Assembly (NCBI GenBank): GCA_034440375.1
Contig: JAWXBZ010000213.1
Span: 1 to 10,748, forward strand
Source: Candidatus Eiseniibacteriota bacterium
GTDB lineage: Bacteria; Eisenbacteria; RBG-16-71-46; JABDJR01; JAWXBZ01
Reading direction: 5' to 3'
DNA length: 10,748 nt
Under the pieces are notes generated by a model. It made no database searches. It was not told the origin of the DNA and saw only the letters and a list, made by a program, of their open reading frames with translations. Below are positions 355 through 10,748 of this stretch, piece by piece. Numbering within the stretch: the stretch's first letter is position 1; every line of letters begins with the position of its first letter. The position numbers were made by a program, and so were the translations under genes.

Positions 355-903
355 TCAGGACCTGTACTTTTCCAGCATCGCGCGATTGAACTCGTCCGAA
401 GCGCCGCGGGGCACGCTCAGGCTCTGCCAGTTGGCGGAGGTGGCGTGCTTCGCCAGGGTCACGATCTGGCCGGCGTGATAGGCGTAGTGCGATAGCTGCC
501 GGATGATGGCCCGCGTCACGGTATACGGCTCTGACCGGATCATAACGACGCGGGTCAGGTCGGCCGGTGTCAGCGATTCGAGGGCTTGAAAGCACCACTC
601 CCATCCCCTGTTCCACCTGGTCATCAACGATTCGCGCGTGTCATCGGCATTCAGCTCGAACTCGGTATCGCGGTTGCGATCCGGCTTCTCGCCATCCGAA
701 GTCAGGAAATCGACCCAGCGCGAACGGAGATTGCCGGCCAGGTGCTTGACCACGATGGCGGCGGGGTTCGATTCGGCATCGAGCGGGCGGAAGAAGTCGT
801 CGTCGCTCATCCGGACCAGCGCTTTCTCGGACATGGCCTTCAGTTGCCGGAACTCGGCGATCGAGTCGGTCAGGAAATCCTGGCCGGAGTTCGGGGATTC
901 CAT
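355..903 (-). CDS. DUF1572 family protein (DinB/YfiT-like four-helix fold, putative metal-binding)
   Basis: 182 aa ORF with the DUF1572-like motif IVVKHLAGNLRSRWVDFLTSDGEKPDRNRDTEF and the DinB-type His motif HYAYHAGQI. A GGGAGG RBS lies at 911-916 on the minus strand. Confidence 0.9.
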   Translation of the reverse strand: MESPNSGQDFLTDSIAEFRQLKAMSEKALVRMSDDDFFRPLDAESNPAAIVVKHLAGNLRSRWVDFLTSDGEKPDRNRDTEFELNADDTRESLMTRWNRGWEWCFQALESLTPADLTRVVMIRSEPYTVTRAIIRQLSHYAYHAGQIVTLAKHATSANWQSLSVPRGASDEFNRAMLEKYRS

Positions 904-926
904 GGTCGTGCCTCCCGTTGCCGCGA

Positions 927-1778
927 TCAGGAATCGATTCGCCAGGTCAGACCGACGCTGGCGTATCGATACGTGCCCGGTTCGACGGCATTTTGCAGGT
1001 TGAAGTGATAGCGACCCTCGAGGCCCACCGCCGATCGCCCGGCTTTGAATGGAAGCTCAACGCCGACGCCCGCATCGCCCGAAAGCAGCGATTCGCCGAC
1101 TTGCCAGAAGTTTCCGCCGACGCTTCCGGCCAGGTAGGGTCGGACGGTTTGCGTGACGGGAAAGGGATCGACGCGGACGCCGGCGGCCAGTCGCCACGAG
1201 TGCGGCGATCCAGTCAGAATTCCATACTCGGCTCCCACCGCCAGCCAGGGCTCGAAGTGCGAGTAAAGGGTGGCACGGCCCTGAAACCCACCCTCCGTGT
1301 CGTCGCGGGTCGTGAAGTCGGCGTAGCCGCCGGTCAGGGCCAGCGATCGAATCGGGCGAGTGCCGCGCGGCAGGCCATCCGTCGGGTCCTTCGAAACCAG
1401 AGAACCAAGCCAGGCGCCCAGAATCCCGCCGCCGGCTGCACCGTTGAGGCCAAAATATCCTGTGACGAGGGCCTGCTCGCCGAGTGTCAGGTCGTCGTCA
1501 TCGAGGAGCTCGAAGAGGGCGACGATGAGAAGGCCAAAACCGACCCCGGCCACGGCCCCGCTAACCAGCCCGTACTTTGCGCCAGAGCCGACCGCCCGGG
1601 GCGGATAGCGCTGATCGGGCGGGAGAGGTACGCGAGTCGTCGCTTCGGTGGAAGTGATATCGCCCGACGGCGACGAACTCACGCCGGGCTGGGCTCCGGC
1701 AACCCGCGTCACGCTCAGTGTGGCCAACAGGAGCATCGCCGCAAGTCGACGCGTTGTAGTCATGGCATTGCCGTTCAT
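927..1778 (-). CDS. Secreted protein with a glycine-zipper-like segment and a C-terminal outer-membrane beta-barrel-like domain
   Basis: Signal peptide (TTTRRLAAMLLLATLSVTRVAGA-Q), two Gly-rich hydrophobic segments, then alternating amphipathic beta-strands (WLAVGAEYG, VRPYLAGSVG, DAGVGVEL, VGLEGRYH, YASVGLTW). ATG 1778 overlaps the upstream TGA (ATGA). Alternative ATG at 1763. Confidence 0.7.
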   Translation of the reverse strand: MNGNAMTTTRRLAAMLLLATLSVTRVAGAQPGVSSSPSGDITSTEATTRVPLPPDQRYPPRAVGSGAKYGLVSGAVAGVGFGLLIVALFELLDDDDLTLGEQALVTGYFGLNGAAGGGILGAWLGSLVSKDPTDGLPRGTRPIRSLALTGGYADFTTRDDTEGGFQGRATLYSHFEPWLAVGAEYGILTGSPHSWRLAAGVRVDPFPVTQTVRPYLAGSVGGNFWQVGESLLSGDAGVGVELPFKAGRSAVGLEGRYHFNLQNAVEPGTYRYASVGLTWRIDS

Positions 1779-2533
1779 TCCCGTGATCCCTTCCCGATCT
1801 TTGTGGCCAATCCCCGCAGCATCCGAATTTCCCGCTCGGTTGGCATCGCCCGGCCGAACAGCCGACGCAGCGAATTCATGGTGTCCTCGTCCCGATCCCC
1901 TTCAAGATAGCCGATGGAGCGGAGCGCCGGTTCGAGGGCCGCCATCAGCGCCTCGAAACTGGCAGCCTTACCGGGGGGCTCCAGGGCGAGAGAGGCCGGC
2001 ACGCCCTTGCGGGTGAGGTGCGGACCGGGGCCGATCTCGGCCACCTCCTCGTACCAGCGGCCGGTGACGACGGCCACGGCCTGGGCCAGGTTCAGGGAGG
2101 GGGCCTCGTCTGTGGTGGCGATGCGGAGGCGCCGGTGACAGAGGCGTGCTTCCCCGGTGCGCAGGCCGTTCGATTCGCGACCGAAGACGAAGGCCACGCG
2201 GGTACCCGGAGGCAGCCCACGGCGGAAGGCGCCGAGCGTGTCCGGAAAGAGATCGCCCGGACGCTCCTTGCCGACACGGCGGGTGATGGCGACCGTGGCC
2301 TCTTCCTCGGCGAGTGCGGATTCCAGCGTGTCGGCCCGAACGAGTGCGTCCAGAATCGGTCGACCCTCGACCCGGGCCGCCAGTTGATCCTTTTCGACCG
2401 GAAGAGCGGTTGACCCGGCCAGGATCAATCGCGCCACGCCGAAGTTGGCCATCGTCCGGGCCACGAGGCCGACATTGCCGGCGTTGCGTGGCTCGACCAG
2501 GACGATGGCGGTGTTCAGCCCGTCCTCACCCAC
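1775..2533 (-). CDS. trmJ: TrmJ/LasT-type SPOUT tRNA (C32/U32) 2'-O-methyltransferase
   Basis: Motifs IVLVEPRNAGNVGLVARTMANFG, VAFVFGRESNGL and PSLNLAQAVAV, plus a TrmJ-like C-terminal helix LRRLFGRAMPTEREIRMLRGL. The ORF-track start at 3016 is too long. The real start is probably GTG 2533 or CTG 2518. Confidence 0.88.
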   Translation of the reverse strand: MGEDGLNTAIVLVEPRNAGNVGLVARTMANFGVARLILAGSTALPVEKDQLAARVEGRPILDALVRADTLESALAEEEATVAITRRVGKERPGDLFPDTLGAFRRGLPPGTRVAFVFGRESNGLRTGEARLCHRRLRIATTDEAPSLNLAQAVAVVTGRWYEEVAEIGPGPHLTRKGVPASLALEPPGKAASFEALMAALEPALRSIGYLEGDRDEDTMNSLRRLFGRAMPTEREIRMLRGLATKIGKGSRE

Positions 2534-3801
2534 TTCACGATTTCCGGCAGGCTCGGCCGCTTGCCATACATGAGGATGCCGATCCGGAAAATGCGTGCCG
2601 CGGCCCAGACCACGCCCACAATCGTCACTGCGATCAGCGCCATCGAAAGCGCGATCTCCCACCACGGGGGCATCAGCGCCGTGATCCGCATGATCATGAT
2701 CATCGGCGAAACGAATGGAATCATCGAGACGACACGCGCCGCCGTTGAGTCGGGGCTCGAGAGAAAGAAAAAGGTGGCGTACATCGGGAGGATCAGCATG
2801 AAGACGATCGGCTGCTGCATGTGCTGGGCCTCCTGTTCGGTGTTCACCATCGAGCCGATGGCGGTGAACATGGCCAGGAAGAGCGTAAAACCCAGGATGA
2901 AGTAGGCGAGGAACAGCAGCATCAATCCCGGTGAGAACATCGCACCGACATCCTTCATGAAGCCCGGCGGTGCCATCGAGGCGCTGTACCCGGACAGAAG
3001 GATGCCCGTCAGGCAATACGCCGCCACCTGGGTCAGACCGACGAGCCCAAGCCCGAGGATTTTGCCCATGAACAGTTCAAACGGCGACACGGAGGAGAGG
3101 AGCACTTCGATGATCCGCGATGACTTTTCCTCGAGAACGCTCCGCAGGGCCGTCACCCCGTAGGCCATCACGGGCATGAAAAAGAACAGCAGGTAGATGA
3201 AGGTCACCAGGTAGATCACGAGAAAACTGCCCCGGCTGGCTTTTCCCTTGTCATCGACCTTGAGCGTGAGCAGGGGTACGCCCTTGGTGATCGAGTCGAG
3301 ATCGGCCCGGGTAATAGTCAACTGGCGTTCCTTCAGGCGGGCGCCAATGACCGCCCGCCGCAGGGCATCCCGGATCGTGTCGACGGTATGCTCATCCCCC
3401 ACGTTCCGGGCGAAGAATCGGAAGGCGTTCCTTGATTCGATATCGTGGCCGATCAGGAGGTAGCCGAACAGCTCCTTCTCGCTGATGCGTCGGTTCAGGT
3501 CCGTCATGAGTGCCGTGGTGTCGGCGGGTGGGGCGATGGCCTCCACCTTGAACTCGTTCAGACCGCTCTTGAACAGGTCGTCGCCGAGGTCGGCCACGAC
3601 TTCCTCACCCACCTGGCCCGACTGGTCGATGACGGCCAGGTCAATGGTCCGCTCCGGCCGCAACTTCACGGACATGATCTGAATGCCGATGATGAAGGCG
3701 AAGAAGAGTGGCCCCAGCAGGAGCCCGATCCAGAACGACTTCTTGGCGACATGCTGCCTGTACTCGCGGGCGGCGATCAGCTGGATCTTCTTGACGCTCA
3801 T
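2515..3801 (-). CDS. ABC-2 type transporter permease (NatB/YhaP-like)
   Basis: N-terminal IAAREY and TM helix, a large extracytoplasmic loop, the EEKSSRIIEVLLSSVSPFELFMGKILG motif, five further TM segments and a C-terminal AARIFRIGILMYGKRPS. ATGA overlap with the ATPase stop at 3798-3801. Confidence 0.92.
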   Translation of the reverse strand: MSVKKIQLIAAREYRQHVAKKSFWIGLLLGPLFFAFIIGIQIMSVKLRPERTIDLAVIDQSGQVGEEVVADLGDDLFKSGLNEFKVEAIAPPADTTALMTDLNRRISEKELFGYLLIGHDIESRNAFRFFARNVGDEHTVDTIRDALRRAVIGARLKERQLTITRADLDSITKGVPLLTLKVDDKGKASRGSFLVIYLVTFIYLLFFFMPVMAYGVTALRSVLEEKSSRIIEVLLSSVSPFELFMGKILGLGLVGLTQVAAYCLTGILLSGYSASMAPPGFMKDVGAMFSPGLMLLFLAYFILGFTLFLAMFTAIGSMVNTEQEAQHMQQPIVFMLILPMYATFFFLSSPDSTAARVVSMIPFVSPMIMIMRITALMPPWWEIALSMALIAVTIVGVVWAAARIFRIGILMYGKRPSLPEIVKWVRTG

Positions 3802-4766
3802 CGGGACGCCCCGCTTTCGGCGAGCGCCACCTGGGCCGCCGCCTGGCTGGCCTTCATTTCCTCGGCGGCGCCGGGACCGGCCACCTGGATGAAAATGTTG
3901 TGGAGTGTCGGCTCCACGATCTCGAAGCGGCGGACCTTGACGCGCGAAGCCACGGTCACGAGCAAGGTCTGCGGGTCGGCGCCATCCTTGAGCATGACCT
4001 CGCTGTAGGCGCCGTAATCGTCCACCCCGCGCACCTCGGGCAGGGCCGAAAGGAATGAGCTGTCCCCCTCGAACTCGATGAGCACGTTATTGCGGCCGTA
4101 GCGTTGCTTGACCTCCGCCAGCGTTCCCTCCAGCACCACGCGCCCCTTGTTGATCAGGGCGATGGAGCGGCACAGCTTTTCGGCGCTCTCCATCATGTGG
4201 GTCGAGAAGACGATCGTCGTGCCGCGCCGGTTGACCTCGACGAAGAGATCCTTGAGCTGGTTGGCGTTGATCGGATCGAGGCCACTGAACGGTTCGTCCA
4301 GGATGAGGAGATCCGGTTCGCTGAGCAGGGTACCGACGAACTGGACTTTTTGAGCCATCCCCTTGGAGAGCTCTTCAATTTTCCGCTCCTTCCACTCGCC
4401 AAGGCCCACCTTGTCGAGCCAGGTGGTCGCCCGGCGCCGGGCCTCGGCCACCTCCAACCCCTTGAGCGCCCCGAGAAAAGCCAGGACTTCCAGGACCTTC
4501 ATCTTCTTATAGAGACCCCGTTCCTCGGGGAGGTAGCCGATGCGGTTCAGGGTGTCGCTGTTTGGAGGGGTGCCAAAAATCTCCACGGAGCCGGAGTCGG
4601 GCCGGATGATGTCCATCATCATGCGGATCGTCGTGGTCTTGCCGGCCCCGTTTGGGCCAAGCAGGCCAAAGACGATCCCCTTCGGGATATCGAGACTGAC
4701 GTCCTCGACGGCCACATGCTTGTCATAAGCCTTGCGGACGTTTCGGACGAGGACGGCGCTGGACAC
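3798..4766 (-). CDS. ABC transporter ATP-binding protein (NatA/YhaQ-like, with C-terminal DUF4162-like domain)
   Basis: Walker A GPNGAGKT, Q-loop region YLPEERGLY, signature LSKGM, Walker B LLILDEP and H-loop STH. Likely start is GTG 4766, preceded by GGGGG. ATG 4778 is the alternative. The ORF-track extension to 5012 looks non-coding. Confidence 0.93.
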   Translation of the reverse strand: MSSAVLVRNVRKAYDKHVAVEDVSLDIPKGIVFGLLGPNGAGKTTTIRMMMDIIRPDSGSVEIFGTPPNSDTLNRIGYLPEERGLYKKMKVLEVLAFLGALKGLEVAEARRRATTWLDKVGLGEWKERKIEELSKGMAQKVQFVGTLLSEPDLLILDEPFSGLDPINANQLKDLFVEVNRRGTTIVFSTHMMESAEKLCRSIALINKGRVVLEGTLAEVKQRYGRNNVLIEFEGDSSFLSALPEVRGVDDYGAYSEVMLKDGADPQTLLVTVASRVKVRRFEIVEPTLHNIFIQVAGPGAAEEMKASQAAAQVALAESGASR

Positions 4767-4848
4767 AAGGACCCCCATGGTGGCTTGAATCAAAAGTGCC
4801 CGGTGCCCTTGCCCCGCATCCGGGGCCGGCAAAAGCCGAACGCGAGGC

Positions 4849-4878
4849 AGTATAGCGGCCGGTGCGGCTACGCGGCAG
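4849..4878 (-). promoter_or_regulatory. Putative sigma70-type promoter of the ABC-trmJ operon
   Basis: TATACT -10 hexamer at 4854-4849 on the minus strand, with a weak -35 (CTGCCG) 18 nt upstream. It lies about 80 nt before the ATPase start. Confidence 0.45.
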
Positions 4879-4911
4879 GGGGCTGTCGGTTGCGGGGCGA
4901 CGGGTGGCGCA

Positions 4912-4969
4912 CGGGACAACTTGTCCCGATCGGGAATTTTTGGGAGCCATCGCAATGACCCGATTCGGG
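4912..4969. promoter_or_regulatory. Cluster of palindromes, candidate enhancer (UAS) for a sigma54 activator
   Basis: CGGGACAA-C-TTGTCCCG (4912-4928), overlapping TCCCGATCGGGA (4924-4935) and CCCGA-T-TCGGG (4959-4969). They lie about 150-200 nt upstream of the -24 element. Confidence 0.5.
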
Positions 4970-5040
4970 AACAAGAGGTATGACAATCGGCGTTGGAACA
5001 GGCACCGATCACTCTATCTGCTCAACGGATGATCATTCGC

Positions 5041-5053
5041 TAACTCCTTGTCC
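5041..5053. promoter_or_regulatory. IHF-like binding site
   Basis: TAACTCCTTGTCC matches the YAA-N4-TTG core of the reversed IHF consensus (YAANNNNTTGATW), though not the ATW end. It sits between the palindromes and the sigma54 element. Confidence 0.4.
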
Positions 5054-5116
5054 TGACAAACGCTGGATGGCGATCGATGAATCGGGTTGCCGTTGCCCGC
5101 ACCGGCTTCCGGCTCG

Positions 5117-5132
5117 GGGCACGGTTGTTGCA
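5117..5132 (+). promoter_or_regulatory. sigma54 (RpoN) -24/-12 promoter
   Basis: GGGCACGGTTGTTGCA has GG(5118-5119)-N10-GC(5130-5131) and matches TGGCAC-N5-TTGCA at all but the first base. It is about 120 nt upstream of the BON gene ATG. Confidence 0.75.
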
Positions 5133-5251
5133 AACGCACTTCTTACAACGGCGAAGTCACATGCGGCCGTAAGAAATCACAATGGGGAGGCGCCGGATCA
5201 GGTGCCCGATAGCCCCTGAAAGTGTACCTGCAAGAAGAAGGAGGACGGGGG

Positions 5252-5668
5252 ATGTCTCGATCCATGCTTGTGGCACTGCTGGCCATCTCGACGATGGCGA
5301 CAGCCTGCTCGAATTCGGACCGATCGAAGGTGGAGGCCACCGGCAACAAGCCGTACTCCTCGACTGACGTGGCGGCCGACAACACCGCTAAAAACAAAGT
5401 CGACAAGGACGGAATGGTTCCGGAGCCGATGGATCAGGGTACGAGCGAAGCCGACGTGACCATCACGACCGTACTCCGCCAGGCGATCACATCGGACAAG
5501 TCACTCTCCATGAATGCCAAGAACGTGAAAATCGTCACGCGTGACGGTGTTGTAACGCTGCGCGGACCGGTCGAAACGGCTGCCGAGCGGACGGGCATCG
5601 AGGCCGCGGCCAATGCCATCGCCGGTGTTCAGCGCGTTGACTGTTATCTGGAAGTAACCGGCGGCTGA
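5252..5668 (+). CDS. BON domain-containing lipoprotein (OsmY-like)
   Basis: AAGGAGG RBS (5238-5244) before ATG 5252. Lipoprotein-like signal MSRSMLVALLAISTMATA-C, then ADNTAKN and DQG-SEAD motifs and a BON core NVKIVTRDGVVTLRGPV. Confidence 0.9.
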   Translation: MSRSMLVALLAISTMATACSNSDRSKVEATGNKPYSSTDVAADNTAKNKVDKDGMVPEPMDQGTSEADVTITTVLRQAITSDKSLSMNAKNVKIVTRDGVVTLRGPVETAAERTGIEAAANAIAGVQRVDCYLEVTGG

Positions 5669-5744
5669 CCCGTTCTGAATGTGGGTTTTGTCTTCGGAGT
5701 TTCTCGGAATCAACATCAACATCTTTTGAAACCAGGAGGAAATC

Positions 5745-6272
5745 ATGTCCAAGGCAGTGATCTGTCTGACCAATACAACCGATCAGGCGGCGACGATTGT
5801 GGATGAGCTGAAGATGGTCGGATTCAACAACAACGACATTTCGGTGCTGTATCCCGACAAGACTGGCTCGCATGATCTGGCCCACGAACAGCATACGAAG
5901 GCGCCGGAAGGCGCAGCCACGGGTGCCGGCGTCGGCGGCGTGGTCGGCGGCACCCTCGGCCTCCTGGCCGGGATCGGCACGCTGGCCATCCCCGGCATTG
6001 GACCGTTCATCGCCGCTGGTCCGATCATGGCCGCCCTCGGCGGGGCCGCCATGGGTGCGACGGTCGGTGGCATCGGCGGAACCCTCATTGGTCTGGGAAT
6101 TCCGGAGTACGAAGCCAAGCAGTACGAAGGAAAGGTCCGTGATGGCAAGATCCTGATCTCGGTGCACACCGAGGATGGCAAGGAGCAGGAGAAGGCCAGG
6201 GACATCTTCAAGGCCTGCCACGCCGAGGATATTGGCACCGTCCAGGAAAAGAGCATGAGCAACAACAAGTAG
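5745..6272 (+). CDS. General stress protein (YflT/GSP17M-like N-terminus with glycine-zipper membrane hairpin)
   Basis: AGGAGG RBS before ATG. Motifs GFNNNDISVL, TKAPEGAATGAGVGG, LAIPGIGPFIAAGP and LGIPEYEAKQYEGKVRDGKILISVH. Tandem TAG TAG stop. Confidence 0.85.
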   Translation: MSKAVICLTNTTDQAATIVDELKMVGFNNNDISVLYPDKTGSHDLAHEQHTKAPEGAATGAGVGGVVGGTLGLLAGIGTLAIPGIGPFIAAGPIMAALGGAAMGATVGGIGGTLIGLGIPEYEAKQYEGKVRDGKILISVHTEDGKEQEKARDIFKACHAEDIGTVQEKSMSNNK

Positions 6273-6295
6273 TAGAACATCCGACTCATTCAATC

Positions 6296-6335
6296 CAAGG
6301 CCACGGTTGTCGGCTTTTCGACAACCGTGGCCTTG
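6296..6335 (+). terminator. Perfect 17-bp stem-loop, probable terminator or mRNA stabiliser
   Basis: CAAGGCCACGGTTGTCG-gctttt-CGACAACCGTGGCCTTG, 23 nt after the stop of the stress gene. The U-tail is weak (CCTTATT). Confidence 0.7.
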
Positions 6336-6390
6336 CCTTATTGATTCCCGCTGGACCGGGGCAACGCGGGTTGCTACCCTGCGATCCCTC

Positions 6391-7248
6391 ATGGTTGAAC
6401 GAATCAGGAACGCCCGCCCACGGGCCCTCACCGCCCGGACCGCCGATCCGCACATTCTTTACGAACGGGCTGTGCAATCAATTCCCGCGGATCTTGATTT
6501 TGCCGAGCGCATATTCAGGGCTCACCGCAAGAAATCACTCCGTTCCCTGCGTGAGGACTTCTGCGGCACCGCCGCCCTGGCCTCGTCCTGGGTCCGACGT
6601 CATCCCGACAACCGCGCGTTTGGCGTCGACCTGCATGGGCCGACCCTCGACTGGGGGCTCCGGGAGCATGTGGCCCGGATGACACCAAAGGAACAGGCTC
6701 GCCTGCTTCTGCTCCAGGAAAATGTGCTTACGGCGGCCACGCCCCCGGCCGACTTGACGATGGCCCTCAACTTTTCCTACTCGGTCTTCCATGATCGAGT
6801 TGCCCTCCGGGCCTATTTCGAGGCGGTGCATGCGGGGCTCAACAGCAAGGGGCTGTTCATTGTCGATGCCTTTGGCGGCACGGAGTCCAACATCCCCTTT
6901 GTGGAAACCCGCCGCATGAGCGCCGGTGAAACGGTCGAGGGGGATCCCCTACCGGCCTTCACCTATATCTGGGAACAGGCCGAGTTCAATGTCGTCGACC
7001 ATCGCCTCCGGTGCCACATTCACTTCCGCTTCAGGGACAAGAGCCGGCTCCGTCGCGCCTACACCTATGACTGGCGTTTCTGGACCCTGCCGGAACTCCG
7101 GGAGGTCCTGCTCGAGGCGGGCTTTCGGGAGGTGGAGATGTATCTGCACGGCTGGACCAGGAACGGGGAGTCGGATGGGGTATTCCGCGCGCGGACCCGC
7201 TCCGAAAACGCGGAAAGCTGGCTGGCTTATGTGGTTGGAATCCGCTAA
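6391..7248 (+). CDS. Class I SAM-dependent methyltransferase
   Basis: Motif I variant LREDFCGTA, acidic motif II GVDLH, ALNFSY, GLFIVDAFGG and YDWRFWTLPELREVLLEAGF. ATG 6391 is preferred because the ORF-track start at 6307 lies inside the hairpin. Confidence 0.87.
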   Translation: MVERIRNARPRALTARTADPHILYERAVQSIPADLDFAERIFRAHRKKSLRSLREDFCGTAALASSWVRRHPDNRAFGVDLHGPTLDWGLREHVARMTPKEQARLLLLQENVLTAATPPADLTMALNFSYSVFHDRVALRAYFEAVHAGLNSKGLFIVDAFGGTESNIPFVETRRMSAGETVEGDPLPAFTYIWEQAEFNVVDHRLRCHIHFRFRDKSRLRRAYTYDWRFWTLPELREVLLEAGFREVEMYLHGWTRNGESDGVFRARTRSENAESWLAYVVGIR

Positions 7249-7412: not shown

Positions 7413-8432
<1,020 letters not shown>

Positions 8433-8463: not shown

Positions 8464-9369
8464 ATGGCATCCACCCCGGACGCGCTCCGATTCCTTGACC
8501 CAAAGGTCGTTGGCCAGCTGTCGAGCCTCGACATGGTGGCCAAGCTGGTGGTCGAAGGGTTCCTGACCGGCCTGCACAAGAGCCCCTATCACGGCTTTTC
8601 CGTGGAGTTCGCCGAGCACCGCCAGTACATGCCCGGCGATCCGATCCGTCACATCGATTGGAAACTCTACGCCAAGACGGATCGCTACTTCGTGAAGATG
8701 TACGAGGAGGAAACGAACCTCCGCGCGCATCTTCTCATCGACTCCTCGGCCTCAATGGGCTACGCCAGCCCCGGCCAGTTGACCAAACTGCGCTACGGCA
8801 CCTACCTGGCCGCATCGCTGGCCTACCTGATGATCAATCAGCAGGACTCGGTGGGCCTCTTGACCTACGCCGACACGATCCGCCGGTTCATTCCGCCGCG
8901 CGCCGTCAAGACGCATCTCAAGGTGCTTTATGCGGAGATGGACGCGATGAAACCGACGGCCACCACCGACACGCTCAAATCACTTCAAGACCTGGCCGAC
9001 CGAATTCACCGGCGCGGCCTGATCATCCTCATCTCGGACCTGATGGACGACTCAAAAGGTGTGCTCACCACCTTGAAGCACTTCCGCCATCGCAAGCACG
9101 ATGTCATCGTCTTCCACGTTCTCGACCCGCACGAAATCGAATTCCCCTTCAAGGACGAATCGGGATTCATCGACATGGAAACCGGCCGCGAAGTGCTGAC
9201 CCAACCTTGGGAAATCGCGAAGGAATATCGCAAGAACTTTAAAGCCTGGCAGGAGGCCTACGCCCGTGAATGCCGAGCCAATCTCATCGACTACGTCCCA
9301 ATCGACACCTCGACGCCGTTTGACCGGACCTTGCTGGCCTACCTCGAGAAGCGGCGCCGCTTGGCGTAG
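8464..9369 (+). CDS. DUF58 domain protein with VWA/MIDAS motif (MoxR partner)
   Basis: GLHKSPYHGFSVEFAEHRQYMPGDPIRHIDWK, MIDAS-like DSSAS and LIILISD. Canonical position directly after moxR. Confidence 0.94.
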   Translation: MASTPDALRFLDPKVVGQLSSLDMVAKLVVEGFLTGLHKSPYHGFSVEFAEHRQYMPGDPIRHIDWKLYAKTDRYFVKMYEEETNLRAHLLIDSSASMGYASPGQLTKLRYGTYLAASLAYLMINQQDSVGLLTYADTIRRFIPPRAVKTHLKVLYAEMDAMKPTATTDTLKSLQDLADRIHRRGLIILISDLMDDSKGVLTTLKHFRHRKHDVIVFHVLDPHEIEFPFKDESGFIDMETGREVLTQPWEIAKEYRKNFKAWQEAYARECRANLIDYVPIDTSTPFDRTLLAYLEKRRRLA

Positions 9370-10495
9370 CAGGCGGCGATCGCTTCGCTCCCTGATCCTG
9401 GCTGGCACCGCACTCGGCCTGTTGTCAGGCTGTGGTGACGACGACGATTCGGATCCAACCCCCGTGCTCGTGGAAATCGGTGGCGCCGATGGGCGCATTC
9501 TCGATTCGGAGTACGTGTCCCGGCGTTATTTTTCGCTCGAGAACCTGCGGGTGCCGATCGAGCCGATCGAGCCACAGGATATCGAGCTCTTTCAGTCGAC
9601 CAGAACTCCCGAAGCCGACCGTCGAAACGGACGTGAGACCTTCGGGGCGCGCGGCTCCCAACAAGGAGACGGAGCCGGACCGATTCTGATAGATACGGTC
9701 GTGCGGCTGACCGCAAGTGACGACTACTTCGCCTTCACCACGGACCGCGCTCGCGGCGCCGTCATCGTTCTTCGCAATTCCCTGCCCGGGAATCTGCGGC
9801 TCTACGCGGGCTACAAGACGGGTGATGCCGGTACCCCCGGCCAGGTCGGCAATTACTGGAGTGAGCGTGCGCCGGGCGATTCTCTGAGCCTGAAACCCCT
9901 CGCCCTCACCGAAGCGGACGTCACCGGCACCACGCTTTCCGGTGACTTCATCGACTACACCCTCCGCCTGGAGCGACGAAACATCTATTCACTTGATGTT
10001 CGGGACATCGACCTGAATTCCTTGAACCTGACGATCAGCCGAATCGGTGCCGCCGATCCCACCCGGATCGACGGCGTGCCCCTGCTCGAGGCCACCGGAC
10101 TCGACTTGCTCCTCAATGTCACCAGACAGGGATGCGGCACCCTCGACATCACGCCGTTTCCGGGTGGCCCCGACGGCAGGGTCGACCCTCAGTGGATCGA
10201 CGAGCAGAACGGCCTCATTTTCTTCCCCGACCTCCAACCCTTCGACCCCGACCCGTTCGACCTGGTCGACCCGGAAACGGGTGAGGTCCGAAATCCCTGT
10301 CGGGAGCGCGTCATCGGCTGGGAGTTGTTCGACCCAACCCCCGGGACTCCGGGAGACGAAGGGTATCGCCGGACTTCCGGGCAACAGCAGCCGGACGAAC
10401 GCAATGCGGCGTTGTACGGCACGTTTCGAGCCAATCCCGCGGAAGCTCGTTACGAGATCACCGGGTTCTTTGAGGTTGAGACGGATTCCGAATGA
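9266..10495 (+). CDS. Predicted lipoprotein resembling an internal segment of the T9SS translocon SprA/Sov (start uncertain)
   Basis: Lipobox LSG-C (Cys codon 9431-9433) after RRRSLRSLILAGTALGL. Colinear SprA-like motifs: ILDSEYVSRRYF, ERRNIYSL, PLLEATGLD, PDGRVD, IDEQNGLIFFPDLQPF and ALY...RYEITG. The in-frame canonical starts upstream of the signal peptide are GTG 9266 and TTG 9320, both inside DUF58. Confidence 0.72.
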   Translation: MNAEPISSTTSQSTPRRRLTGPCWPTSRSGAAWRSRRRSLRSLILAGTALGLLSGCGDDDDSDPTPVLVEIGGADGRILDSEYVSRRYFSLENLRVPIEPIEPQDIELFQSTRTPEADRRNGRETFGARGSQQGDGAGPILIDTVVRLTASDDYFAFTTDRARGAVIVLRNSLPGNLRLYAGYKTGDAGTPGQVGNYWSERAPGDSLSLKPLALTEADVTGTTLSGDFIDYTLRLERRNIYSLDVRDIDLNSLNLTISRIGAADPTRIDGVPLLEATGLDLLLNVTRQGCGTLDITPFPGGPDGRVDPQWIDEQNGLIFFPDLQPFDPDPFDLVDPETGEVRNPCRERVIGWELFDPTPGTPGDEGYRRTSGQQQPDERNAALYGTFRANPAEARYEITGFFEVETDSE

Positions 10496-10690
10496 GCTCG
10501 TGATGATCAGGGGGGGGTCGTACACGGGGGGTCTTTCCTTACTCGAGTTGTAGTCGGGAGGCTGACCTACCTCTATTTTAGGGTATTCCCGGCTGCTGAT
10601 TCAGGCAAGCTCCAAATTCGCAGATTTGTTATTTTGCGGCCCGGATCATCGTATCTGTAGAAGCGGCGGCGCCTGGCGTGATCTCGGGTG

Positions 10691-10748
10691 TTACCCCTCC
10701 CGCGCCAACCGCCGCTCGTACTCCTCAATCCATCCGCGAATCCGCGGG
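10691..10748 (-). CDS. Possible 3' end of a convergent gene entering from the right edge
   Basis: The minus frame from 10747 reads PRIRGWIEEYERRLAREG-TAA (stop at 10693-10691). It looks like a charged amphipathic helix with GC-rich codon usage, but only 18 codons are visible. Confidence 0.45.
   Translation of the reverse strand, partial: PRIRGWIEEYERRLAREG

What the first reader, a model, noticed from the sequence alone, without database searches (positions are those of the whole stretch)
9431..10495. Stand-alone lipoprotein made of a SprA/Sov-like internal module without the barrel
Seen: a lipobox (LSG-C), an acidic/Pro linker (GDDDDSDPTP) and a soluble domain of about 350 aa. Recalled from SprA family sequences, these motifs run in the same order: ILDSEYVSRRYFSL (cf. 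I.a.dY..nRhFFL), RLTASDDY..GAVIVL..L..LYAGY (cf. RkL..seY..lGyisL..L..LAVAY), DSLSLKPL (cf. LiLKLL), ERRNIYSL (cf. mmKNIYsL), PLLEATGLD (cf. pLL.vlgLD), PDGRVD (cf. pDG.fD), IDEQNGLIFFPDLQPF (cf. I..qnG.IiFP.lePF) and ALY...RYEITG (cf. eLY...kf.lkG). Established: SprA is a protein of more than 2000 aa forming a 36-stranded translocon barrel with large folded inserts. Inference: one insert module has been excised and given its own lipid anchor. It could be an undescribed T9SS accessory or chaperone, or a surface domain shared with SprA.
Basis: partly seen in the sequence, partly recalled or inferred. Interest (0 to 1): 0.8.

Follow-up and report, generated by a model that had tools for sequence, protein, structure and literature searches.

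The report
Free-standing copy of SprA cap insert
This gene encodes a complete small lipoprotein made only of a copy of the outward-facing "cap" piece of the cell's own type IX secretion pore SprA, and relatives show such free copies have arisen again and again from the resident pore gene, for a purpose still unknown.

Summary
ORF 9266/9320..10495 (+) has a lipobox (Cys codon at 9431), an acidic/Pro linker and a ~340-aa domain. That domain is 39% identical (E 1e-58) to residues 312-661 of the genome's own full-length SprA, which lies on another contig.

An AlphaFold model (pLDDT 87) matches only F. johnsoniae SprA in the PDB, at residues ~260-694 (Z 13.6; next hit 4.2). This region fits the first extracellular cap insert, between barrel strands 7 and 8.

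The gene is not truncated. A 43-kb metagenome contig carries the same stop and runs on into a convergent gene. Homologues end at the same boundary.

A profile search finds many short forms. Most are lipoproteins with an acidic post-Cys motif like the Bacteroidota surface-export signal. Some instead carry a T9SS C-terminal sorting domain.

In 6 of 6 genomes holding both forms, the short form is closest to its own genome's SprA (39-87% against 24-42%). Monophyly of the short forms is rejected (AU p 7e-24). One pair gives dN/dS 0.13.

Function is untested. I infer a surface-displayed mimic of the SprA cap, either a decoy or a T9SS accessory. I found no prior description.

The parts
9266..10495 (+). 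Largest extent of the gene for the stand-alone SprA-cap-insert lipoprotein (409 codons from GTG 9266; 391 from TTG 9320), stop codon included
   Evidence: The identical ORF with the same stop is on a 43-kb metagenome contig. The gene call in the public collection (P0002, 343 aa) starts later, at an internal codon.
9251..9256 (+). AGGAGG, a possible ribosome-binding site 9 nt before GTG 9266. It lies inside the DUF58 coding sequence, so it may be a chance match.
   Evidence: Read from the sequence; not tested.
9320..9433 (+). Signal peptide if TTG 9320 is the start: an Arg-rich n-region, the hydrophobic stretch LILAGTALGLL, and the lipobox L-S-G-C (9422-9433, Cys codon at 9431)
   Evidence: The lipobox is conserved in P0003 and P0004. 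No SignalP-type tool was available.
9434..9463 (+). Acidic/Pro linker GDDDDSDPTP directly after the lipid-anchored Cys. It resembles the Bacteroidota lipoprotein export signal (B. fragilis consensus C-SDDDD).
   Evidence: LES consensus read in PMC5080379 section 11. 26 of 37 lipobox-type short forms have >=2 D/E in the six residues after Cys, against 18 of 121 crude lipobox ORFs in the own genome.
9476..10474 (+). Module homologous to the SprA insert (residues 71-403 of the 409-aa frame). It aligns to residues 312-661 of the own SprA and to about 260-694 of F. johnsoniae SprA.
10493..10495 (+). TGA stop. All short forms end the module at this boundary, or continue there into a Pro-rich linker plus a T9SS sorting domain.
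7413..8432 (+). Upstream neighbour: MoxR-type AAA+ ATPase
   Evidence: Pfam AAA_3 3e-62, AAA_lid_2, bpMoxR.
8464..9369 (+). Upstream neighbour: DUF58/vWA-like protein. Its last 50-104 nt overlap the 5' end of the lipoprotein ORF in another frame.
   Evidence: Pfam DUF58 3.5e-49; overlap read.
10691..10748 (-). 3' end of a convergent gene. On the longer contig this is a 252-aa predicted membrane protein with no Pfam family. It shows that the lipoprotein gene ends here in a normal gene-to-gene spacer of 195 nt.

Best explanation
SHOWN (about 0.9). The ORF is a complete gene for an exported lipoprotein. Its whole mature part (354 aa) is a paralogue of one folded insert of the type IX secretion translocon SprA. 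That insert is 39% identical to residues 312-661 of the genome's own SprA and aligns structurally to F. johnsoniae SprA residues about 260-694. It is not a truncated sprA. The genome keeps a full-length sprA elsewhere, together with porU, porV-like genes and about 100 genes with T9SS sorting domains.

INFERRED from the literature (about 0.8). The region is the first of the two inserts (between barrel strands 7-8 and 11-12) that build the 50-A extracellular cap of SprA. In F. johnsoniae it includes a residue (Q452) that touches the cargo's C-terminal domain.

SHOWN. Free copies of this insert form a sizeable family. Most are lipoproteins with an acidic stretch after the Cys; some instead have an ordinary signal peptide and a T9SS type A sorting domain. 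They are not one old paralogue lineage. Each is closest to the sprA of its own genome or lineage, so they were copied from, or homogenised with, the resident sprA many times. Afterwards they were kept under purifying selection.

INFERRED (about 0.6). Both targeting devices (LES-like lipoprotein, T9SS sorting domain) deliver the module to the cell surface or to vesicles. That is the side where the SprA cap sits.

MY PICK for mechanism (about 0.3). The protein is a surface- or vesicle-borne mimic of the exposed SprA cap. It binds whatever recognises that cap from outside (phage tail proteins, bacteriocin-like toxins) and so acts as a decoy. Repeated re-copying from sprA keeps the mimic matched to the receptor it imitates.
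For: Identity and completeness.

Cap assignment:
- Review PMC9127263 (passages read) states that two folded inserts between strands 7-8 and 11-12 form the cap sealing the extracellular end.
- PMC10994853 (passages and section 7 read) reports contacts between the cargo CTD and the SprA cap and names SprA Q452.
- The alignment places Q452 inside the matched region.

Family size: a profile search of 1.84 billion representatives gave 1111 hits at E<=1e-3. Of the best 150, 68 are <=530 aa with the match starting near the N-terminus.

Sorting domain: TIGR04183 is over its cut-off in two Eisenbacteria short forms (31.2 and 25.2 bits against 23).

LES-like motif: 26 of 37 against 18 of 121 in a crude own-genome control.

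Self-resemblance:
- In 6 of 6 genomes with both forms, the short form is most like its own SprA: 39, 87, 65, 59, 48 and 51%, against 24-42% to the other genomes' SprA and 25-45% to other short forms.
- FastTree of 147 modules interleaves short and long forms; short_lipo needs >=19 changes on starred branches.
- The AU test rejects short-form monophyly, delta lnL 1672, p 7e-24.

Selection:
- The G003 pair has dS 0.65, dN 0.082, dN/dS 0.13, with unrelated flanks.
- In run X11, 7 of 8 listed differences are synonymous and the length difference is 33 nt, in frame.

Accessory character:
- Patchy occurrence: 6 confirmed, at most 15, of 206 genomes of the phylum.
- No conserved neighbours.

For the decoy idea specifically:
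- LES lipoproteins are sorted into vesicles in Bacteroides (PMC6222051, PMC10319031; search listing and abstract starts only).
- Phage-resistant Flavobacterium psychrophilum isolates carry mutations in T9SS genes, including five in sprA (PMC9804748, passages read).
Against: - No experiment, RNA or proteome evidence exists. No RNA run holding the stretch was listed.
- Surface exposure rests on analogy with a Bacteroidota export signal that has never been tested in Eisenbacteria. The genome gave no hit to the Bacteroidota GldK and GldM models.
- The residue range of the cap inserts comes from a review; the primary 2018 structure paper is not held. 'Insert 7-8' is therefore an inference from position, not a read-off.
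- dN/dS of 0.13 shows conservation, not the diversifying selection an arms race might leave.
- The Flavobacterium phage data may reflect loss of secreted receptors rather than SprA itself being a receptor.
- In the window's lineage the copy is old (39% identity to its own SprA), so mimicry there is loose.
- The rows of the AU test were chosen after the first tree was seen.
- The CTD-type label in the 150-protein survey rests on a tail pattern of my own, checked by HMM for two proteins only.
Confidence: 0.4

Rival explanations
1. T9SS accessory. The free cap insert sits at the surface and binds the same partner as the cap inside the pore, namely the cargo's C-terminal sorting domain or the PorV-cargo complex. 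It would help hold, hand over or release secreted proteins.
For: In F. johnsoniae the cargo CTD buries about 1000 A2 against SprA, and the cap assists binding. SprA Q452 is named as a contact and lies in the region homologous to the module. The own genome has about 100 CTD-bearing genes, porU above cut-off, and porV-like genes. Tracking the own SprA could also reflect co-evolution with lineage-specific CTDs or PorV.
Against: The distribution is patchy: 6 confirmed, at most 15, of 206 genomes. There is no linkage to T9SS genes in any of the loci examined. Some forms are themselves T9SS cargo, which fits awkwardly with a protein that grips sorting domains. The Q452-equivalent position is not conserved among short forms (alignment).
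Confidence: 0.25
2. Periplasmic assembly factor. The lipoprotein stays on the inner face of the outer membrane and chaperones folding of SprA's cap, for example by standing in for insert 1 beside the second insert while the 36-strand barrel is built.
For: The review states that the first cap domain surrounds the second from both sides, so a free insert 1 should have a groove for insert 2. In G129 the short form lies 48 nt downstream of an 825-aa SurA-like PPIase gene.
Against: Sister forms carry a T9SS sorting domain and so leave the periplasm. The acidic post-Cys motif resembles a surface-export signal rather than a retention signal. Most genomes of the phylum build SprA without a short form.
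Confidence: 0.1
3. Donor cassette. The short gene mainly serves as a template for gene conversion into sprA (or the reverse), varying or repairing the exposed cap.
For: Each short form is closest to its own sprA, with similarity confined exactly to the module (flanks 25-28% identical, i.e. random). Short and long forms interleave in the tree.
Against: The short genes have their own signal peptides and sorting signals and are under purifying selection as proteins (dN/dS 0.13). Each genome has only one copy, which gives no repertoire. dS of 0.65 in the closest pair means no recent exchange there.
Confidence: 0.05
4. Not a real gene: a fragment of sprA left by rearrangement, an assembly chimera at a contig end, or a decaying pseudogene.
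For: The window is a whole 10.7-kb contig of a fragmented MAG (264 contigs), and the ORF ends 253 nt before its end. Several MAGs of the phylum do carry broken sprA frames (G006, G047, G051, G176).
Against: The same ORF and stop lie on a 43-kb contig that continues into other genes. The N-terminus is a lipoprotein signal, not barrel strands. Intact homologues at 39-74% identity share both ends. One more copy lies on a 3.36-Mb contig. Synonymous-biased differences and an in-frame indel are seen in a related population.
Confidence: 0.03

Closest known systems
SprA/Sov, the T9SS outer-membrane translocon (NCBIfam TIGR04189; F. johnsoniae structures 6H3I, 6H3J, 8GL6, 8GL8), specifically its first extracellular cap insert
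   Same: Homologous sequence and fold over the whole mature protein. It is 39% identical to the own SprA residues 312-661. Z is 13.6 over 291 residues to F. johnsoniae SprA residues about 260-694. The same motifs appear in the same order.
   Different: There are no barrel strands, no periplasmic N-terminus, no second cap insert and no C-terminal 1600 residues. It scores 14.9 bits against a family cut-off of 200. It carries its own lipoprotein signal. It is a domain paralogue, not a translocon.
Bacteroidota surface lipoproteins with the lipoprotein export signal (LES; B. fragilis C-SDDDD, F. johnsoniae C-SDDFE; Lauber et al. 2016, PMC5080379)
   Same: A lipobox Cys is followed at once by a polar residue and a run of Asp/Glu. 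The window has C-GDDDDSD. The motif recurs in 26 of 37 lipobox-type family members.
   Different: The organism belongs to Candidatus Eisenbacteria (named for relatives), where no LES pathway has been tested. The passenger domain is unrelated to SusD-like or other known LES cargo.
T9SS type A cargo proteins (C-terminal sorting domain, TIGR04183 / PF18962)
   Same: Sister short forms in two genomes of the same phylum (G194, G203) carry this domain above the curated cut-off, directly after the module.
   Different: The window's protein has no sorting domain. It ends five residues after the module and uses a lipid anchor instead.
MoxR-DUF58 (Bat-like) operons
   Same: The gene follows, and overlaps, a MoxR AAA+ gene and a DUF58 gene on the same strand. 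The N-terminal out-of-frame peptide of homologue P0011 suggests the same arrangement in a second Eisenbacteria MAG.
   Different: No BatA/BatB-type genes follow. No MoxR or DUF58 match lies within 6 kb of the module in any of 33 related loci, four of which hold short forms. The other short forms have unrelated neighbours.

Membership tests
SprA/Sov translocon (TIGR04189) | Whole-protein score above the curated cut-off (200 bits) over a model of about 2300 positions | tested here: not met
   14.9 bits, E 0.0027, only model positions 450-543. The genome's real SprA scores 535 bits.
SprA/Sov translocon (TIGR04189) | 36-strand transmembrane beta-barrel | tested here: not met
   The mature protein is 354 aa. 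The whole model aligns to the insert region 260-694 of the 2403-aa chain and to nothing else.
SprA/Sov translocon (TIGR04189) | Folded cap insert after barrel strand 7 | tested here: met
   Homology and fold match. The assignment to the strand 7-8 insert is inferred from the review's description.
Bacterial lipoprotein (signal peptidase II substrate) | Lipobox [LVI][ASTVI][GAS]C after a hydrophobic stretch and a positively charged n-region | tested here: met
   The sequence reads ...RSRRRSLRS-LILAGTALGLL-SGC. The lipobox is conserved in P0003 and P0004. The start codon is uncertain (TTG 9320 or GTG 9266).
Bacterial lipoprotein (signal peptidase II substrate) | Predicted or demonstrated SPII cleavage and lipidation | not testable with these tools
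   No SignalP/LipoP-type tool and no experiment.
LES-type surface lipoprotein (Bacteroidota) | Polar residue then several acidic residues at positions +2 to +5 after the Cys | tested here: met
   C-G-D-D-D-D against the consensus read. Family 26 of 37, own-genome control 18 of 121.
LES-type surface lipoprotein (Bacteroidota) | Actual exposure on the cell surface; an export pathway present in this phylum | not testable with these tools
   No data for Eisenbacteria.
T9SS type A cargo (TIGR04183 sorting domain) | C-terminal sorting domain above the 23-bit cut-off | tested here: not met
   The window protein has no such hit and ends 5 residues after the module. The feature is met in the sister forms L034 (31.2 bits) and L033 (25.2 bits).
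MoxR-DUF58 operon member | Conserved adjacency to MoxR and DUF58 across homologues | tested here: not met
   Adjacent in the window, but there is no MoxR/DUF58 match in any of 33 related loci, four of which hold short forms. The arrangement is possibly shared by P0011.

The most novel reading that the evidence does not exclude
Free copies of the SprA cap insert are self-renewing receptor mimics. Cells that depend on an exposed, indispensable secretion pore display, or shed on vesicles, a lipid-anchored or T9SS-delivered replica of the pore's outer face. The replica soaks up phages or toxins that dock on SprA. Lineages keep the replica matched to the pore by re-copying it from, or converting it with, the resident sprA. 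This would be a new kind of outer-membrane decoy defence, and the first function assigned to the outside of the SprA cap.
Probability: 0.2. Interest if true: 0.85.

Novelty: new variant of a known kind. Interest (0 to 1): 0.62.

Why it matters
SprA is the largest known single-chain outer-membrane barrel and the core of type IX secretion. What its extracellular cap does, beyond closing the pore and touching the cargo signal, is open.

A family of free, exported copies of one cap insert gives a small soluble handle on that part. A 350-aa domain can be expressed, crystallised and used in binding assays. That is impractical with a 2300-aa barrel.

The short forms repeatedly derive from, and resemble, their own genome's sprA. 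They use two alternative routes to the surface. Both points suggest selection for 'looking like the resident cap'. That points to an outside ligand of SprA (phage, toxin, cargo or partner) nobody has looked for.

The result also shows that T9SS components outside Bacteroidota (here Candidatus Eisenbacteria) have variants absent from the model organisms. The region has no Pfam model, so these proteins are all annotated as hypothetical.

Tried and rejected
- Pfam on the protein: no family at E<=1.
- Single-sequence search of PDB sequences: only designed pentapeptide-repeat proteins at E 0.03-0.16, taken as noise.
- IS element or contig-end truncation: rejected. The longer contig shows a plain 195-nt spacer and a convergent gene.
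- Promoter and terminator scan around the gene: 0 promoter-like sites; 4 terminator-like sites, none in the spacer after the gene, against 2.3 expected.
- Primary structure paper (Lauber 2018): not held under DOI or PMC id. The cap description is taken from a review instead.
- The search for related loci in genome contigs: alignment A5 was too diverse. A2 found 54 pattern matches but no relative. A6 gave 33 loci.
- Conserved neighbours of short forms: none found.
- G176 'short form' (L037): dropped from the list of stand-alone genes. It is cut by the contig start. It is followed 33 nt later by an ORF whose SprA_N match sits at the distance expected for one broken sprA. L037 was nevertheless a row of alignment A5, whose profile was used.
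- G006, G047, G051 short frames: these are broken full-length sprA frames, not stand-alone genes.
- ESM Atlas: best scores 0.87, below the level that means anything.
- Taxon names for the largest lipoprotein clade (P0074 group): none on record.
- RNA evidence: no RNA holder listed.
- Read laying: only short low-depth contigs. Parts of the ORF had no cover in the runs laid.
No result exists.
- GldK and GldM equivalog models: no match in the own genome, which is 93.7% complete. The GldM control rang nowhere, so this is inconclusive.
- A free copy of the SprA_N region in the own genome: none; the only hit is sprA itself.
- Literature: 'Eisenbacteria' with 'type IX secretion' gave 0 papers. For SprA/Sov/paralog/lipoprotein/T9SS, 53 papers held at least 4 of the 5 terms. 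None of the 10 listed describes a stand-alone SprA module, judged by titles and abstract starts; one was checked by passages.
Full report
**What is in the window.**

The window is a whole contig (C213, 10,748 b) of a 3.96-Mb MAG with 264 contigs, 93.7% complete. Frame 9266..10495 (+) is open for 409 codons.

Reading the DNA, the lipobox L-S-G-C occupies 9422-9433. It is followed by GDDDDSDPTP (9434-9463) and about 340 further residues.

The upstream gene stops at 9367-9369. Between that stop and the hydrophobic core there is no ATG, GTG or TTG. Translation must therefore begin inside the upstream gene, at TTG 9320 or at GTG 9266. The latter lies 9 nt after an AGGAGG. Either start gives an Arg-rich n-region, an 11-residue hydrophobic stretch and the lipobox.

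Upstream on the same strand lie a MoxR-type AAA+ gene (7413-8432) and a DUF58 gene (8464-9369).

**Is it SprA-like?**

Curated models barely see it. Pfam gives nothing. TIGR04189 gives 14.9 bits at model positions 450-543.

The genome's own translocon settles the question. Contig C34 carries a 2295-aa sprA scoring 535 bits to TIGR04189. BLASTP aligns residues 71-403 of the window protein to its residues 312-661, with 139/355 identities and E 1e-58.

Structure and profile searches agree:
- A profile of 17 module sequences hits only F. johnsoniae SprA among all PDB sequences, E 7.4e-07, chain 444-625.
- An AlphaFold2 model of the mature protein is confident (pLDDT 87.1, pTM 0.82).
- By Foldseek it matches three F. 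johnsoniae SprA entries at E 7.6e-11 to 1.4e-09; the next hit is at E 0.024.
- By VIA-align it gives Z 13.6, 11.8 and 11.3, with about 291 residues aligned at rmsd about 5.5 A to chain residues about 260-694; the next hit is Z 4.2.
- In the Foldseek-independent scan of 48,161 chains, 6h3i_A is the only chain with Z>=8; the next is 5.2, an Ig-like S-layer domain matching model residues 29-160.

**Which part of SprA?**

The 2018 structure paper is not held. [quoted passage not shown] It also says two folded inserts, between strands 7-8 and 11-12, form a 50-A cap sealing the extracellular end, the first domain embracing the second (PMC9127263, passages).

The module follows the first few hundred residues of SprA. 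By my reading of the own SprA sequence it comes after about seven strand-like segments. I therefore assign it to the first cap insert. This is an inference.

The 2024 translocon paper (PMC10994853; passages and section 7) reports that the cargo's C-terminal domain buries about 1000 A2 against SprA and is assisted by the cap. It names SprA Q452 as a contact. In the alignment, Q452 falls in the matched region, opposite the window's V-L-R-N-S-L.

**Is the gene whole?**

A 43-kb metagenome contig (L018) holds the identical gene and extends past the window's end. It has the same TGA, a 195-nt spacer, then a convergent 252-aa membrane-protein gene and an ArgZ-like gene. This contig may come from the same sample, so it counts as support for the assembly, not independent biology.

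Independent support comes from homologues.
- P0003 (74% identity, 360 aa), P0004 (70-72%, 355 aa) and P0006 (39-42%, 324 aa) all end two to five residues after the same final strand motif.
- P0003 and P0004 keep the lipobox.
- P0005, the fifth hit, is a fragment of a true SprA.

In run X11, from a different study, a contig about 84% identical shows 7 synonymous third-position changes among the 8 listed. It also shows a 33-nt length difference, in frame, at the loop where P0004 is 11 residues shorter. In X9, five listed differences inside the ORF are 2 synonymous and 3 not, at depth 2-3.5, and no indel is listed within the ORF.

**A family, with two routes out of the cell.**

Among the 206 genomes of the phylum or class held, the single-protein query found matches in 91 (E<=1e-6). 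Four of those had two matches.

The 9-row profile (A5, which included the later-dropped G176 sequence L037) found matches in 184 genomes (E<=1e-10), and 15 had two matches. I inspected six of those 15; the other nine were not inspected.

Four genomes encode lipoproteins made of the module alone:
- G000.
- G003, on a 3.36-Mb contig.
- G076.
- G129.

Three of these four have acidic residues after the Cys.

G194 and G203 encode an ordinary signal peptide, the module, a Pro-rich linker and a T9SS type A sorting domain. TIGR04183 scores 25.2 and 31.2 bits against a cut-off of 23.

Short frames in G006, G047, G051 and G176 are broken sprA genes, not stand-alone forms.

Record titles of related loci, and one NCBI protein name, place these genomes in Candidatus Eisenbacteria/Eiseniibacteriota.

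A profile search of 1.84 billion representative proteins gave 1111 hits at E<=1e-3, 520 at <=1e-10 and 79 at <=1e-30. Of the best 150:
- 82 are longer than 530 aa.
- 68 are shorter. By my own rules, 37 of these have a lipobox, 9 have a sorting-domain-like tail (pattern only), and 22 are fragments or unclear.

All names on record are 'hypothetical protein'.

**Surface signal.**

In 26 of the 37 lipobox forms, at least two of the six residues after the Cys are Asp or Glu. In a crude scan of the own genome, only 18 of 121 lipobox-like ORFs reach that, and 7 reach four. The window protein has four.

The motif matches the lipoprotein export signal of Bacteroidota (B. fragilis C-SDDDD, F. johnsoniae C-SDDFE). 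That signal is sufficient for surface exposure in Capnocytophaga (PMC5080379, abstract and section 11).

With the sorting-domain forms, this makes an extracellular location the simplest reading. That is also where the cap sits in SprA. It is untested in this phylum.

**The short forms track their own SprA.**

In all six genomes with both genes, the short form is most similar to the module of its own SprA: 39, 87, 65, 59, 48 and 51% for G000, G003, G076, G129, G194 and G203. Identity to the other five SprAs is 24-42%. Identity to other short forms is 25-36%, or 45% between the two sorting-domain forms.

A FastTree of 147 modules interleaves short and long forms. The window's clade of six short forms is sister to G000's SprA (support 95). 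G003's short form is sister to G003's SprA (support 100). The lipoprotein label needs at least 19 changes on well-supported branches.

On 42 rows (21 short, 21 long, chosen after seeing that tree), IQ-TREE needs 17 changes. The AU test rejects a single short-form clade (delta lnL 1672, p 7e-24).

In G003 the two copies are 87% identical in protein (309/356, no gaps) and 83% in DNA. The flanks are unrelated. dS is 0.65 and dN 0.082, giving a ratio of 0.13. The copy has therefore been kept as a protein for a long time.

Either the insert has been copied out of sprA many times, or an older short gene is repeatedly overwritten by sprA. Acquiring a signal peptide each time seems unlikely, which favours conversion. 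I could not test this.

**Context.**

The own genome has porU (520 bits, over cut-off), followed by the best porV-like gene, and 104 sorting-domain matches. There is no hit to the GldK and GldM equivalog models (inconclusive). There is no second copy of any other part of SprA.

Neighbours of short forms differ from genome to genome:
- LeuS and a phosphoesterase in G003.
- A sigma-54 activator in G203.
- A Ser/Thr kinase in G194.
- A SurA-like PPIase in G129.

None of the 33 related loci has MoxR or DUF58 nearby. Only P0011, from another Eisenbacteria MAG, seems to share the window's arrangement. Its annotated N-terminus repeats the peptide produced by reading the end of DUF58 in the lipoprotein's frame.

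**Reading.**

The anatomy is firm: a complete lipoprotein gene whose passenger is a paralogue of the first SprA cap insert.

The function is inferred. The targeting signals, the patchy distribution, the variable neighbourhoods and, above all, the repeated matching to the resident sprA suggest selection to look like the exposed cap.

My first pick (about 0.3) is a surface- or vesicle-borne decoy for agents that dock on SprA. The main rival (about 0.25) is a T9SS accessory that binds sorting domains or PorV-cargo, as the cap does inside the pore. Assembly chaperone, conversion donor and artefact are less likely.

The phage link is indirect. Phage-resistant F. psychrophilum isolates carry mutations in T9SS genes, five of them in sprA (PMC9804748, passages).

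I found no description of stand-alone SprA modules. The library lacks most subscription journals, so this is not proof of absence.

Noticed in passing
G000 genome (C196:26443-31076; whole genome): The genome has sprA, porU (520 bits, over cut-off) followed by a porV-like gene, further porV-like paralogues and 104 T9SS sorting-domain matches. The Bacteroidota GldK and GldM equivalog models find nothing. Either the motor and ring parts are too divergent for these models, or this phylum runs the translocon differently.
   Followed up: partly
window 9337-10650 (run X9): One low-depth (3.7), 547-b contig about 92% identical joins 9337 directly to 10650, skipping the whole lipoprotein gene. Oddly, it carries a copy of 10510-10652 before that join. 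It may be a relative lacking the gene at this locus, or a chimeric unitig.
   Followed up: no
L037 (G176:C19:1-7000), L032 (G006), L038 (G047), L035 (G051): Several MAGs of the phylum carry sprA frames broken by a stop or frameshift. In G176 the break falls just after the cap-insert module, 33 nt before the frame resumes. These could be sequencing errors, pseudogenes or genuinely split translocons.
   Followed up: partly
L036:321-2795 (+) and L036:2904-4034 (+) (G129): In G129 the short lipoprotein form lies 48 nt downstream of an 825-aa SurA-like/PPIC-type prolyl isomerase gene. The F. johnsoniae SprA complex contains a prolyl-isomerase lipoprotein of unknown role. This is a single case.
   Followed up: no
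window 9266-9369 and protein P0011: The 5' part of the ORF overlaps the end of the DUF58 gene. The peptide it would encode there (..RRRLTGPCWPTS..) recurs almost unchanged at the annotated N-terminus of P0011 from another Eisenbacteria MAG. This is probably conservation of the DUF58 C-terminus read in another frame. It leaves the true start codon open.
   Followed up: partly
window 10509-10531: Directly after the stop lie runs of eight and six G separated by eight bases. The spacer is lower in G+C (0.56) than the gene (0.61-0.66). No terminator-like hairpin was found there.
   Followed up: no
L031:7953-10700 (-) (G003): The gene convergent on G003's short form encodes a 916-aa metallophosphoesterase-like protein. 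Its C-terminus gives weak FlgD-Ig-type hits of the kind seen in sorting domains (E 1e-4), so it is possibly a T9SS cargo.
   Followed up: no
window 355-7248: The other genes of the window are: DUF1572/DinB-like (355-903, -), a SpoU-type methylase (1775-3016, -), an ABC-2 permease and its ATPase (2515-5012, -), a BON-domain lipoprotein (5222-5668, +) and a YflT-like stress protein (5745-6272, +). Nothing links them to T9SS.
   Followed up: no
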